This document shows, piece by piece, positions 24,312-27,748 of a stretch of DNA of 64,000 nucleotides. Location: assembly GCA_965649165.1 (NCBI GenBank), contig CBFGJT010000006.1:1592-65591 (forward strand), written 5' to 3'. Both the position numbers and the translations under genes were made by a program. The stretch's first letter is position 1; each line of letters opens with the position of its first letter. The notes beneath the pieces were generated by a model. The model searched no databases. It saw nothing but the letters and a program-made list of their open reading frames with translations, and was not told the origin of the DNA. The stretch comes from a candidate division WOR-3 bacterium. GTDB taxonomy: Bacteria; Hydrothermota; Tepidihabitantia; Tepidihabitantales; Tepidihabitantaceae.

Positions 24312-26603
24312 TCAATCCAGGGCGACCGCTTGACCCAGGGCAATGCCGCCATCATTTAAAGGAAACTTCTGGTTGTGATATACTCTGAAACCGGAACAGC
24401 GCAGCCTGCGCACCAGTTCCAGCCGCAACAGACGGTTTTGAAAACTGCCGCCAGAAAGGCAGACCGTCTTTATCTGATTGAGCTCCGCCAACCGGATTAA
24501 TGCCTGGTGAAATGTCCGGACCAGTGTCTGATGGAACCAAAGCGACACCTTTCCTGCCGGAATTCTCAGGCACATTAGCTGAAATACGGTTCGAATTAAA
24601 GGGCAAGGATCCACCAGCAGCATCCCCTGATTGAAACTTAACGCATCAATTTCTGGCAATCTTAATTCTATCGCGCTGCCTGCAGTTAACGCCTCATTCT
24701 CCAGGGCAATTGCCGCCTCACCTTCAAATGATACCCGCTGGCAGACGCCGGTTATTGCTGCCACCGCATCAAACAAACGCCCAAGACTTGAGGTTATAAC
24801 CGGTGCTTGTGCATACACCCGGGAAACTGGCAGTCCCAGCCTCCGGATCGCACCAATTTCAATTCCAGACTGAACGAGATAGCTCACAGCCACCCGAACC
24901 GGATCAGCCAGGTACCCGCCCCCAGCACCATGGCGCAGATAGGCAAGATGACCCAACCGTCTCCAAGTCCGGTCCGGGTTTATCAGCAGAAACTCACACC
25001 CCCAGATTGCCCGGTCCGGTCCGTAACCGGTGCCATCAGCTGCCAGCCCGAGCACCGGACCGCGCAGGCCATGTTCTGCCATTACCGAAAGGATATGGGC
25101 ATAATGATGCTGGACCCTTTTAAGCGGAAGCCGGAATCTCCTGCTCAGGGTTTCTGCCAGCCGAACCGAGCTATAATCCGGATGCAGATCGCAGACCAGC
25201 CTTGCGGGCTTGATCTCCGTCCATTCAATAAGGCGATTCAGCGCTGCAAAAAAGAAACTCTCCGCTGCCGCCGTCCCCAGTTCGCCGATGTGCGGTCCGG
25301 CAAACAGTTTTTCTCCGGCAGCAAGGGCAAAGCTGTTTTTACTGTCCGCCCCCACCGCCAGGGTTGGATGTTTCACGTGAAACATCCTATCCAGGTGCAA
25401 TGGCTGGGGAACATAACCTCGAGACCGGCGAACCATGATTGCATTGGCGGTTTCAGCCTGAATCACTGAATCGTCACACCGGTTGGCAATCTCCCGGTTG
25501 TGCGTGAGCACATAGTCAAAAAATAGCTCTTTGCGATTAAAAAGTTCCTCCTCGGATGCCACAATGGGTTCGTCACTGACATTGGCGCTGGTCATGATCA
25601 AAGCCGGTGATTTAACTTTATTATTTTTTAATGACTTAAAGACTAAGAGGTGAAGCGGGGTATAAGGGAGGAGAATACCGTAAGCAGGGTTATGGGGGGC
25701 AATTAGAGGTGAGAGCCGGATTTTAGTGTGCTTGCGCTTGGGTAAAAGCACAATCGGCGCCGCCGGGGAACATAGAAGCCGAGCAGCACCGGCTGGTAGA
25801 TGGCAGAGGTTTTTTGCGGCGGTCAGGCTTTCCACCATTAAGGCAAATGGTTTTTGGTCTCTCCCCTTCAGCCGACGCAGGCGCCGAACCGCACGATCGT
25901 TTTGGGCATCACAGCACAGATGGAATCCACCTAACCCTTTTATTGCCAATACCTTACCATCAAGAATCAGCTGGGCAGCCTTCTCAATCGGGTCGCCAGC
26001 CATCGGTATCCCTTTTCGGTTCAGGAGTTGAGCTGCAGGTCCGCACTGAGGGCAGGCGATTGGTTCGGCGTGGAAGCGGCGGTTTGGAGGGGAGAGGTAC
26101 TCCTTCTGACACTGGTCACACATCAGAAATTTACGCATGGTAGTGCGTTCCCGGTCATAAGGAAGCTGAAGTATTATTGTATATCTAGGACCGCACTGGG
26201 TGCAATTGATAAATGGATAAAGGTAACGGCGGTTATGCGGATCGATAAGCTCGCGCTTGCAGGCTGAACAGGTCGCAAGGTCGGGTAGGACCTCGACTCC
26301 GGGTTTTGCTGGGGTGGTGGGGCTGGGTATGATGCTAAATTCTGAATAGCGCGGTTTTTTGACAGTTCGGGTCCGGATTTCGGAGATGAGCGCCAGCCGG
26401 GGTGGATGATTTTTAAGCTGGTCCAGAAGCCGATCCGCCCCCTTTCCCTGAGCAAGGATTGTTACACCGGCGCGGGTGTTGGTGACCGTTCCTCTGATGC
26501 CCAGCCTTTTTGCCAGGCGGAAAATATAGGGCCGGAATCCAATACCCTGGACCTGACCGGTGACAGTTATTTCCAGAGTATTAAGTAGTTGACCGCGGAT
26601 AAT
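24312..26603 (-). CDS. hypF: [NiFe]-hydrogenase maturation carbamoyltransferase HypF (full length, non-canonical start)
   Basis: The track ORF (608 aa from ATG 26138) lacks the acylphosphatase domain and first zinc finger. The same frame stays open to 26615 and encodes [14 protein letters not shown] and [29 protein letters not shown]. I propose ATT 26603 as the start. Confidence 0.8.
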   Translation of the reverse strand: [763 protein letters not shown]

Positions 26604-26605
26604 AC

Positions 26606-27748
26606 TTACGGGGTTTTATCCTGAGGTTCCAGCAGTTCTGGCTCCTCTTCGCTCAATTCGTAAATGTTTTTGTCATCCTTCTTTTTAATCAGGAATCCGA
26701 GAAGGAGGACATTACCGGAGAACCAGACCGAAATGCCATATGCCAGAACCATCAGCGCGATGCCGTAGATACAGAAACTGAACAGTAACGTCCCCAGATA
26801 TACACCCCAGCTCGGGCTTTCCCAGAAGAGTGGGCTGAGATAGCTGTCAAGTCCGTAAATACTCATTTCCCAGACAATCATCTTGTGGAGGGGAGTAAGC
26901 ACACCCCATTGCGGGACCGAGATCTGAAAGATGAAGCTGGTGCCGTTGAGCATTTCACTCAGGGTTTCACCCATAAACACTGAAAGAATAAGCGTGCCAA
27001 TCCGGACCGCAAGGCTGGATGCCAGACCTAAAAGCAAAGAACCAATTTTGCTCAGTAAGGCGATGACCGCAGTGAACCAGAAGAGCCGCGCCGGCTGTTC
27101 ATTGATACAGGAAAAGACCTCAAACAGGGTATCAAAGGTGTCGTTCCCCAGCGCACCAACAATCGCCGGCGCCAGAAACAGGGTCCAGACCAGCACTATC
27201 AGGAGATAGACAACGAAAAGGGAAGCGAAGAAAGCGGGGACCGCAAAGATCCCGGTAATTACTGGTCCAATGTAAGGTATTGATCCTAAAGCACTTAGTA
27301 TCAGACCCGCAATTAAAATTATCAGAATAAACGCGATGATGAGCAAGGGACTGCCCAGGGTTGCACCAAGGTTCTGGAGTGCGAACTTAAACGCTTCACC
27401 CGCCTCAAAAAATTCATTCCCGCGGAGCTGCTCGTAGGTAACTTTGGCGACCGCACTGCCGGTAACGAGCATGACGAGCAGAAACCAGATAACACCGAGG
27501 GCATAAATCAGCCAGGAAATCCAGGGGAAGGGAAGGTTGGGCGTAGGAAAAGGAAGAAGCCGGTAGGTTTCCCAGATTGACACCCAGTCGTTACCCGCGA
27601 TCAGGTGGGCAAGGTAGGTAAGTAGTGTATAGCCGGCAAAACCGAATAAGAGACCCAGCATAATCATACCGACCTTCTTGGCAGAAAAGCCCAGGCGCAA
27701 TGCCCGGAAGATGTCTTTGTAATTAAAATGTAATGCACCCATCTTCAA
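26606..27748 (-). CDS. Multi-pass integral membrane protein (unknown family)
   Basis: 380 aa with about 9 hydrophobic segments. The likely start is ATG 27742, 9 nt after GGGAGGAG. The stop lies 2 nt before the hypF frame start. Confidence 0.6.
   Translation of the reverse strand: MKMGALHFNYKDIFRALRLGFSAKKVGMIMLGLLFGFAGYTLLTYLAHLIAGNDWVSIWETYRLLPFPTPNLPFPWISWLIYALGVIWFLLVMLVTGSAVAKVTYEQLRGNEFFEAGEAFKFALQNLGATLGSPLLIIAFILIILIAGLILSALGSIPYIGPVITGIFAVPAFFASLFVVYLLIVLVWTLFLAPAIVGALGNDTFDTLFEVFSCINEQPARLFWFTAVIALLSKIGSLLLGLASSLAVRIGTLILSVFMGETLSEMLNGTSFIFQISVPQWGVLTPLHKMIVWEMSIYGLDSYLSPLFWESPSWGVYLGTLLFSFCIYGIALMVLAYGISVWFSGNVLLLGFLIKKKDDKNIYELSEEEPELLEPQDKTP

What the first reader, a model, noticed from the sequence alone, without database searches (positions are those of the whole stretch)
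24312..26615. Full-length HypF needs a non-canonical start: ~155 conserved N-terminal residues lie upstream of any ATG/GTG/TTG
The ORF track starts HypF at ATG 26138, inside the second zinc finger. Reading the same frame upstream, I found it open to 26615. It encodes [42 protein letters not shown]... (acylphosphatase domain) and ...[36 protein letters not shown]... (first zinc finger). This segment is colinear with E. coli HypF residues ~1-160 as I recall them. It contains no ATG, GTG or TTG. ATT (26603-26601) and ATC (26600-26598) lie 2 nt after the TAA of the upstream membrane-protein gene (26606-26608). Termination-reinitiation on a near-cognate codon is therefore plausible. HypF is also an orphan here, with no other hyp or hydrogenase genes in the 64 kb, and it sits directly upstream of the dnaA boxes.
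Basis: partly seen in the sequence, partly recalled or inferred. Interest (0 to 1): 0.62.

Follow-up and report, generated by a model that had tools for sequence, protein, structure and literature searches.

The report
HypF gene starting at rare AUC codon
In this uncultured hot-spring bacterium (candidate division WOR-3), the hydrogenase-maturation gene hypF is intact but has no normal start codon; it most likely begins at a weak ATC codon 5 bases after the stop of the gene in front, an arrangement kept across a whole clade of relatives and mis-annotated as a truncated protein in public databases.

Summary
On the minus strand the hypF frame is open from 26615 to the TGA at 24314-24312. It encodes a complete HypF (TIGR00143, 716 bits). 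The first in-frame ATG/GTG/TTG is ATG 26138, inside the second zinc finger. The 153 codons before that ATG are under the same purifying selection as the rest of the gene (dN/dS 0.11-0.16). At least nine other WOR-3 assemblies also lack a canonical start, so this is not an assembly error.

In all of them an Ile-type AUH codon sits 2-19 nt after the stop of a conserved 380-aa membrane-protein gene. That gene has a strong SD and an ATG; hypF has no SD. In the window's subgroup the neighbouring codons vary, and ATT becomes ACT or AAT. ATC 26600-26598 never changes. A 55%-identical relative has TTG at exactly that aligned codon. WOR-3 relatives with a canonical start all have spacers of at least 37 nt after the upstream stop.

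Best reading: initiation at AUC (possibly AUU) by ribosomes that have just terminated on the upstream gene, giving low HypF output. This is a new member of a known kind (near-cognate starts such as infC and pcnB). A second gene in the window, a lipoprotein at 3947, also appears to start at ATC.

The parts
24312..26600 (-). Full-length hypF coding sequence as proposed here: ATC start at 26600-26598, 762 codons, TGA stop at 24314-24312.
   Evidence: TIGR00143 at 715.8 bits over residues 12-761. Pfam domains. Open frame.
26598..26600 (-). ATC, the most likely initiation codon. It lies 5 nt after the upstream TAA and 14 codons before the G of the GQVQG motif.
   Evidence: Invariant in the window, L001, L002, L015 and the contigs of runs X1, X3/X5 and X7/X9, while flanking codons change. 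The homologous codon is ATA, ATA, ATT, ATC, ATC in L021-L025. It aligns with the TTG start of L027/P0009 at -14.
26601..26603 (-). ATT, an alternative or additional near-cognate start 2 nt after the upstream TAA.
   Evidence: Present in the window, L002 and L015, but ACT in L001 and AAT in the X1 contig.
26606..26608 (-). TAA stop of the upstream membrane-protein gene, the proposed site from which terminating ribosomes reinitiate.
26606..27742 (-). Conserved gene for an uncharacterised 378/380-aa multi-pass membrane protein. It has a strong SD, and its likely start is ATG 27742. It lies immediately upstream of hypF in every WOR-3 locus examined.
   Evidence: No Pfam or NCBIfam hit. 51-92% identical orthologues lie upstream of hypF in 16 loci. 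Its orthologues have SD GGAAGGAG/AGGAGG plus ATG in relatives.
26616..26618 (-). In-frame TAA that closes the hypF frame upstream. It leaves only 5 codons before ATC.
26331..26573 (-). Acylphosphatase domain of HypF. It lies wholly upstream of any canonical start.
   Evidence: Pfam PF00708, 1.9e-17, residues 11-91. The GFR Arg and the VTN Asn are present.
26172..26273 (-). First HypF zinc finger (CxxC-x18-CxxC), upstream of any canonical start.
   Evidence: PF07503, residues 111-144. Sequence.
26136..26138 (-). First canonical in-frame start (ATG). It sits inside the second zinc finger and is the start of the truncated 608-aa public call (P0004).
26514..26516 (-). CTG homologous to the codon that the NCBI records of L001 and L002 use as the hypF start. 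Starting here would delete the phosphate-binding loop.
27898..27925 (-). Promoter-like site (TTGACA-16-GAAAAT) before the 42-codon ORF. It is the likely start of the transcript covering the 42-aa ORF, the membrane gene and hypF.
   Evidence: Consensus scan only. No promoter-like or terminator-like site was found at the membrane-gene/hypF junction.

Best explanation
hypF encodes a complete, functional carbamoyltransferase HypF. Its translation starts at a near-cognate isoleucine-type codon: AUC 26600-26598, with AUU 26603-26601 as a possible second site. The start codon is presumably read by initiator tRNA as Met.

The gene has no Shine-Dalgarno sequence. It sits 2-5 nt behind the stop codon of a well-translated membrane-protein gene. 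Ribosomes that terminate there most likely reinitiate locally on the AUH codon (termination-reinitiation coupling). This would yield a small, fixed fraction of HypF per upstream protein.

Shown here: the N-terminal 153 codons are translated and selected. No canonical start exists. The AUH codon and the tight spacing are conserved across a deep WOR-3 clade.

Inferred: that AUC rather than AUU is used, that initiation depends on upstream translation, and that the purpose is low expression.
For: 1. The protein is complete. It matches TIGR00143 at 716 bits and has all five Pfam domains. The acylphosphatase domain and first zinc finger lie upstream of ATG 26138.

2. The upstream codons are under selection. 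dN/dS of codons 2-154 is 0.11-0.16 against three relatives, compared with 0.14-0.18 for the rest of the gene.

3. Many assemblies lack ATG/GTG/TTG before the domain: the window, L001 (=L003=L014), L002, L015, L021, L022, L023, L024, L025 and L017/L018. Contigs from independent hot-spring runs X1, X3, X5, X7 and X9 show the same junction.

4. An AUH codon occupies the homologous site in all members of the main clade. In L022 (TAA GAT ATT ATA) and L024 (TAG TTT ATC ATC) the frame opens one codon before it, so no earlier start is possible.

5. In the window's subgroup ATC is invariant. Its neighbours change non-synonymously (ATT/ACT/AAT; CGC/GGC/ACC). The Leu codon at -10 shows three synonymous variants (CTA/CTC/CTT), so translation starts upstream of -10.

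6. L023 and L024 differ by six synonymous changes and one conservative change over the first 17 codons.

7. P0009/L027 has TTG at exactly -14, the aligned position of ATC. It has no Ile pair there, so the Ile codons are not a protein-level requirement.

8. Spacing separates the two classes completely. The stop-to-domain distance is 47-64 nt in loci without a canonical start and 74-150 nt in WOR-3 loci with one.

9. The upstream gene has a strong SD and ATG in relatives, while hypF lacks an SD. No promoter- or terminator-like site lies at the junction.

10. The state persists across a clade with HypF path lengths of about 1 substitution per site and arose again independently in L017.

11. Literature: AUA, AUC, AUU and CUG initiate at about 1-2% of AUG in E. 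coli, with Met at the N-terminus (bioRxiv 10.1101/063800). Reinitiation after termination works at overlaps or very short spacers and is nearly gone by +22 to +38 nt (PMC10666635).
Against: There is no direct evidence of the N-terminus. No proteomics, ribosome profiling or RNA run holds this organism.

Termination-reinitiation is documented with canonical start codons, not AUH.

In L022 and L025 the conserved AUH lies 14-19 nt from the stop, where coupling is already weak in E. coli and Haloferax.

A second gene in the window (lipoprotein, ATC 3947) seems to use ATC without any upstream ORF. The organism may therefore accept AUH starts without coupling.

WOR-3 relatives with canonical starts also lack an SD, so the missing SD is not specific to the AUH state.

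The separation by spacer length is partly phylogenetically confounded, with one main clade plus one independent case.

No conserved RNA structure was found at the junction.
Confidence: 0.62

Rival explanations
1. The start codon is the same (AUC/AUU), but 30S subunits initiate on it de novo, independently of the upstream gene. On this view the lineage's initiation machinery tolerates AUH codons in general.
For: The lipoprotein gene at 3947-4735 also needs an ATC start. It has no upstream co-directional ORF and sits 6 nt after a TTGACA-16-TATAAT promoter. Earlier scan notes report AUU/AUC starts in another WOR-3 genome (unchecked). In L022 and L025 the AUH is 14-19 nt from the stop.
Against: hypF has no SD and no promoter-like site in front. 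Spacer length separates canonical from non-canonical loci completely, which de novo initiation does not explain. The other roughly 52 ORFs in the window have ordinary SD plus ATG/GTG starts.
Confidence: 0.25
2. Translation starts further downstream at another near-cognate codon, CTG 26573-26571 (-6) or ATA 26567-26565 (-4), just before the first beta-strand.
For: Both codons are conserved in the window's subgroup. A public call for P0008 starts at -4.
Against: These codons are not conserved as near-cognates in L021-L025. Codons upstream of them show coding-type variation: three synonymous Leu variants at -10, and six synonymous changes against one non-synonymous change between L023 and L024. 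Starting here would shorten strand beta-1, which the HypF and acylphosphatase models include.
Confidence: 0.07
3. The functional product is N-terminally truncated. It starts at ATG 26138 as in the public 608-aa call, or at CTG 26516 as NCBI annotates the orthologues, and the upstream part is a decaying remnant.
For: These are the existing public gene calls.
Against: dN/dS of the upstream 153 codons is 0.11-0.16, with no stops or frameshifts across relatives down to 46% identity. ATG 26138 splits a zinc finger. CTG 26516 removes the VQGxGFR phosphate-binding loop.
Confidence: 0.03
4. HypF is made as a fusion with the upstream membrane protein by stop-codon readthrough or programmed frameshifting. 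Alternatively, the missing start is a sequencing or assembly error.
For: In L023 and L024 the two genes are in the same frame.
Against: The relative frame differs among relatives (+1, 0 and +2). L022 and L025 have stops in all relevant frames between the genes, and L023 has two consecutive stops. The same junction appears in more than 9 assemblies and in contigs from several independent runs.
Confidence: 0.02

Closest known systems
E. coli infC (IF3) and pcnB AUU start codons; near-cognate AUA/AUC/AUU/CUG initiation measured by Hecht et al. (bioRxiv 10.1101/063800)
   Same: A conserved AUH codon serves as the only possible start of an intact, conserved protein. It is expected to give weak initiation of about 1-2% of AUG. 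It is probably read as Met. Gene callers miss it.
   Different: infC and pcnB have their own ribosome-binding sites, and infC is autoregulated by IF3. Here there is no SD, and the codon sits 2-5 nt after another gene's stop. The gene is hypF, and the state is kept across a clade of an uncultured phylum.
Translational coupling by termination-reinitiation at overlapping or closely spaced gene pairs (Huber et al. 2019, PMC6728339; PMC10666635)
   Same: The genes are co-directional and the spacer is very short (+2 to +5 nt in the window). The downstream gene has no SD and the upstream gene is strongly translated. Relatives with long spacers use a different solution.
   Different: Described cases reinitiate on ATG/GTG (ATGA, TGATG). 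Here the reinitiation codon would be AUC/AUU/AUA. The dependence on upstream translation is untested.
Canonical HypF (E. coli HypF; TIGR00143)
   Same: Same four-module architecture and catalytic motifs. Full-length model match.
   Different: It differs in start codon and genomic context. In WOR-3 it lies between an unknown membrane-protein gene and dnaA, away from the other hyp genes.

Membership tests
Carbamoyltransferase HypF (TIGR00143) | Full-length match above the curated cut-off | tested here: met
   715.8 bits against a cut-off of 466.1; residues 12-761 on model positions 1-739 of 741.
Carbamoyltransferase HypF (TIGR00143) | N-terminal acylphosphatase domain with the VQGxGFR loop and a conserved Asn | tested here: met
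   PF00708 at 1.9e-17, residues 11-91. [10 protein letters not shown] and VTNT are present.
Carbamoyltransferase HypF (TIGR00143) | Two CxxC-x18-CxxC HypF zinc fingers | tested here: met
   PF07503 matches twice. The sequences are [26 protein letters not shown] and [26 protein letters not shown].
Carbamoyltransferase HypF (TIGR00143) | YrdC/Sua5 domain plus Kae1-like C-terminal domains | tested here: met
   PF01300 at 4.6e-40, PF17788 at 6.3e-29, PF22521 at 1.4e-57.
Carbamoyltransferase HypF (TIGR00143) | A [NiFe]-hydrogenase and HypCDE partners in the same genome | not testable with these tools
Genes with a natural near-cognate (AUH) start codon (infC/pcnB type) | No in-frame ATG/GTG/TTG that would include the conserved N-terminus | tested here: met
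   The first canonical codon is codon 159 of the open frame.
Genes with a natural near-cognate (AUH) start codon (infC/pcnB type) | The near-cognate codon is conserved in orthologues while its neighbours vary | tested here: met
   An AUH codon is at the homologous site in all 10 sequences of the main clade, and ATC is invariant in the window's subgroup.
Genes with a natural near-cognate (AUH) start codon (infC/pcnB type) | Shine-Dalgarno sequence at functional spacing | tested here: not met
   The nearest AGGA is 15-18 nt upstream. Relatives have none, although the organism uses AGGAGG elsewhere.
Genes with a natural near-cognate (AUH) start codon (infC/pcnB type) | Experimentally determined N-terminus or initiation site | not testable with these tools
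   No run holds more than 8% of the sampled words, and all runs listed were DNA-type metagenome contigs.
Termination-reinitiation coupled gene pair | Co-directional genes with an overlap or a spacer of about 20 nt or less | tested here: met
   The stop is 2 nt from ATT and 5 nt from ATC. The range is 2-19 nt in all relatives without a canonical start.
Termination-reinitiation coupled gene pair | No promoter or terminator between the genes | tested here: inconclusive
   The consensus scan finds none at the junction, but the scan is crude.
Termination-reinitiation coupled gene pair | Downstream translation depends on upstream translation | not testable with these tools
   This needs a reporter assay.
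Termination-reinitiation coupled gene pair | Canonical start codon at the junction (ATGA/TGATG type) | tested here: not met
   The junction reads GTAAGTATTATC. This is the unusual feature.

The most novel reading that the evidence does not exclude
This WOR-3 lineage may have a generally relaxed or re-tuned start-codon selection, for example through an altered IF3, 16S P-site or initiator-tRNA interaction. AUC/AUU/AUA would then be regular, selectable 'low-gear' start codons used in several contexts: coupled (hypF), promoter-proximal or leaderless (lipoprotein at 3947), and SD-led (TolC in another WOR-3 genome, from an unchecked note). Under this reading, a few per cent of genes in the phylum would be mis-annotated as truncated.
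Probability: 0.3. Interest if true: 0.65.

Novelty: new member of a known kind. Interest (0 to 1): 0.45.

Why it matters
Public records give this HypF and several orthologues as 603-617-aa fragments, or with makeshift CTG/ATA starts. Those calls remove the acylphosphatase domain and one zinc finger, and would mislead metabolic inference about hydrogenase maturation in WOR-3.

Biologically, this is a natural, long-lived case in which a near-cognate AUH codon directly behind a stop codon replaces a canonical start. The arrangement switches cleanly to TTG/GTG/ATG wherever the spacer is long. It is comparative evidence that post-termination ribosomes can use near-cognate codons, and a concrete system for testing that idea. 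Together with a second ATC-start gene in the same window, it hints that some uncultured phyla use AUH starts far more often than model bacteria do.

Tried and rejected
- **Reads of the same strain.** None were found. Runs hold at most 8% of the sampled words and represent relatives at 85-92% identity. They confirm the junction in relatives but give no pile-up for the window's own strain and no RNA.
- **Look-ups that failed or were uninformative.** P0004 (the window's own call) and P0005 are not on record for contig look-up. L026 is cut by a contig end.
- **GTA as a degenerate start.** GTA 26609-26607 aligns with the CTG that NCBI calls in L021. I rejected it because it is not near-cognate, it is constrained by the overlapping stop, and it is absent in L022 and L024.
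- **Frameshift or readthrough fusion.** Rejected because the relative frames differ among relatives.
- **Conserved RNA structure at the junction.** The window has a small GGAUAA/UUAUCC hairpin over AUU-AUC. It is weak or absent in L001 and not found in L021-L028.
- **Internal promoter making a leaderless hypF mRNA.** No consensus match.
- **ORF 40497-38992.** It has 127 codons before its first canonical start and looked like a second case. It is an ordinary aminotransferase gene with AAGGAGG-N4-ATG, and the open leader is chance.
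Full report
**Observation**

On the minus strand the hypF reading frame is open from 26615, just after the in-frame TAA at 26618-26616, to the TGA at 24314-24312. The first in-frame ATG/GTG/TTG is ATG 26138, codon 159 of the open frame. Translating from ATT 26603 gives a 763-aa protein. 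It matches TIGR00143 (hypF, equivalog) from residue 12 to 761 over model positions 1-739 of 741, at 715.8 bits against a cut-off of 466. It contains Pfam Acylphosphatase (residues 11-91), two zf-HYPF fingers, Sua5_yciO_yrdC, HypF_C and HypF_C_2. The acylphosphatase domain, with its [10 protein letters not shown] loop and VTN Asn, and the first CxxC-x18-CxxC finger lie entirely upstream of any canonical start. ATG 26138 falls inside the second finger. ATT (26603-26601) and ATC (26600-26598) lie 2 and 5 nt after the TAA (26608-26606) of the upstream 380-aa gene.

**Organism and relatives**

The best protein hits are HypF of candidate division WOR-3 MAGs, and the related runs are hot-spring metagenomes. 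About 21 of the 120 best hits lack the acylphosphatase domain in their called product. Several are 603-617 aa and start at the same internal Met: P0004 (the window's own call), P0005, P0064, P0071 and P0094.

**Junction comparison**

Positions are given relative to the G codon of GQVQG.

| Locus | Junction sequence | Note |
|---|---|---|
| Window | TAA gt ATT(-15) ATC(-14) CGC GGT CAA CTA... | |
| L001 (=L003=L014) | TAG gc ACT ATC GGC GAT CAA CTC... | |
| L002 | TAA gc ATT ATC GGC AAC CAA CTT... | |
| L015 | TAA ac ATT ATC ACC GGT CAA CTC... | |
| X1 contig | AAT ATC | |
| L021 | cTGA gt ATC ATA | frame opens at CTG, which overlaps the TGA; NCBI calls CTG |
| L022 | TGA +14 nt, TAA GAT ATT ATA | |
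| L023 | TGA TAA ATA AGT CGT TAT ATT ATT | NCBI calls ATA |
| L024 | TAG TTT ATC ATC | |
| L025 | TAA ttaa AAT ACA ATA AGT TAC ATC | |

- None of these has ATG/GTG/TTG before the domain. The first canonical codons lie at +31 to +140.
- L017/L018, a more distant lineage, also has none.
- WOR-3 relatives outside this clade do have canonical starts: L027 (P0009) TTG at -14, L028 TTG at -11, L005/L016 GTG at -9, L004 GTG at -29, L019 ATG at -15.
- All non-WOR-3 HypF loci have ATG.
- Contigs from further runs (X3/X5 are L015-like; X7/X9 are L002-like) show the same junctions.
- Assembly error is excluded.

**Is the upstream part translated?**

Nei-Gojobori dN/dS for codons 2-154 (from ATC to the internal ATG) is 0.109, 0.159 and 0.142 for the window against L001, L002 and L015. 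The rest of the gene gives 0.180, 0.150 and 0.143. The region stays open and domain-complete in relatives down to 46% identity. A truncated product from ATG 26138, or from the CTG that NCBI uses in L001 and L002 (window 26516-26514), is therefore not the functional protein.

**Where is the start?**

- In L022 and L024 the frame opens one codon before the Ile-Ile pair, so the start cannot be upstream of it.
- In the window's subgroup the Leu codon at -10 is CTA, CTC, CTT or CTC. L023 and L024 differ by six synonymous changes and one conservative change across the first 17 codons. Translation therefore begins upstream of about -10. This argues against CTG (-6) and ATA (-4).
- Within the subgroup ATT is replaced by ACT or AAT, and the two codons after ATC vary freely. 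ATC is invariant.
- Across the main clade the homologous codon is always AUH (ATC five times in the window's subgroup, then ATA, ATA, ATT, ATC, ATC) and never any other codon.
- L027 has its TTG start at exactly this aligned position and no Ile pair. The Ile codons are therefore not needed by the protein. They are conserved as codons.
- I conclude that AUC 26600-26598 is the start, with AUU 26603 as a possible extra site where present.
- Hecht et al. (bioRxiv 10.1101/063800) measured AUA, AUC, AUU and CUG at about 1-2% of AUG in E. coli, with Met at the N-terminus.

**Mechanism**

The organism uses ordinary SD-led initiation. Examples are AAGGAGGAATA-ATG at 40116 and several others. In relatives the orthologous upstream membrane gene has GGAAGGAG or AGGAGG plus ATG, and in the window ATG 27742 is its likely start. 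hypF has no SD anywhere. No promoter- or terminator-like site lies at the junction.

The distance from the upstream stop to the G codon is 47-64 nt in all ten loci without a canonical start, which puts the AUH 2-19 nt after the stop. It is 74-150 nt in the five WOR-3 loci with a canonical start, which puts the start 37-105 nt after the stop. The two classes do not overlap. This matches experimental data that reinitiation after termination works at overlaps or very short spacers, drops 40-80% at +14 nt, and is nearly gone by +22 to +38 nt (PMC10666635).

A HypF tree places the non-canonical state in one well-supported clade of eight sequences, with L028 in an unresolved fork, plus an independent occurrence in L017. 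Path lengths within the clade are about 1 substitution per site, so the state is old and stable. A single C-to-G change would create ATG, yet none of the 17 AUH codons seen is ATG. This suggests that weak initiation is tolerated or favoured for this low-abundance maturation enzyme.

Coupling itself is inferred, not shown. No conserved RNA structure supports an unmasking model.

**Alternatives**

Readthrough or frameshift fusion is excluded because the relative frame of the two genes is +1, 0 or +2 in different relatives, and intervening stops occur.

De novo initiation on AUH without coupling remains a real rival. A second gene in this window needs an ATC start in a different context. ORF 3917-4735 has its first canonical codon at codon 66. 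Only the stretch from ATC 3947 encodes a lipoprotein signal (I)RRPNLILIPLTHLLIS-C. More distant homologues start with Met plus a signal peptide and lipobox (P0128, P0129). Three close homologues are called truncated at 199 aa. A TTGACA-16-TATAAT promoter ends 6 nt before the ATC. The X1 relative keeps ATC and the -10 element, and carries an in-frame CCC insertion in the signal peptide.

The remaining roughly 52 ORFs of the window have normal starts. Two genes in about 54 is far above the rate in model bacteria. Earlier scan notes (unchecked) report AUU/AUC starts in another WOR-3 genome.

**Context**

The order M28 peptidase, 42-codon ORF, membrane protein, hypF, dnaA is conserved in WOR-3 loci. 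No hyp or hydrogenase gene is in the window. DnaA boxes lie in the hypF-dnaA spacer.

**Verdict**

This is a new, well-conserved member of the known class of near-cognate start codons. Its unusual context is the lack of an SD and the position directly behind a stop codon. That context makes it a useful natural test case for reinitiation on non-canonical codons, and it is a systematic annotation error in public records.

Noticed in passing
window 3913-4735 (+): A lipoprotein gene has its signal peptide and lipobox, (I)RRPNLILIPLTHLLIS-C, encoded only upstream of the first canonical start (GTG at codon 66). The likely start is ATC 3947, 6 nt after a TTGACA-16-TATAAT promoter. Close homologues are called truncated at 199 aa. 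A relative at about 85% identity keeps ATC and has an in-frame +CCC insertion in the signal peptide.
   Followed up: partly
window 26606-27889 (-); L001-L028: An uncharacterised ~380-aa multi-pass membrane protein with no Pfam or NCBIfam hit is found immediately upstream of hypF in every WOR-3 locus examined (51-92% identity). It is usually preceded by a 42-44-codon ORF, and dnaA follows hypF. Its likely start is ATG 27742 behind GGAG, not TTG 27748.
   Followed up: partly
L024 2512-2520; L023 2995-3003: In two relatives the membrane gene and hypF are in the same frame. They are separated only by TAG (L024) or by TGA TAA (L023).
   Followed up: partly
L015 (VSSL01000071.1), hypF: The hypF frame of this metagenome contig closes after 415 codons, although tblastn matches the whole length. 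This suggests a frameshift or a sequencing error in that record.
   Followed up: no
window 27975-28062 (-): ARAGORN calls a tRNA-Leu (CAA) inside the M28 peptidase coding sequence. It is probably a false positive.
   Followed up: no
window 57028-57471 (+): A 148-codon ORF matches only positions 33-124 of the AAA ATPase profile. It may be a fragment or a split gene.
   Followed up: no
window 26578-26624 (-): A small hairpin pairs GGAUAA (the last codons of the membrane gene) with UUAUCC (AUU-AUC-C). It would mask the proposed start until the upstream ORF is translated. It is weaker in L002 and L015, absent in L001, and not seen in more distant relatives.
   Followed up: yes
L017/L018 2003-2064: An independent WOR-3 lineage also lacks a canonical hypF start. 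Its only near-cognate codons are ACG, 10 nt after the upstream stop, and ATT at -3.
   Followed up: no
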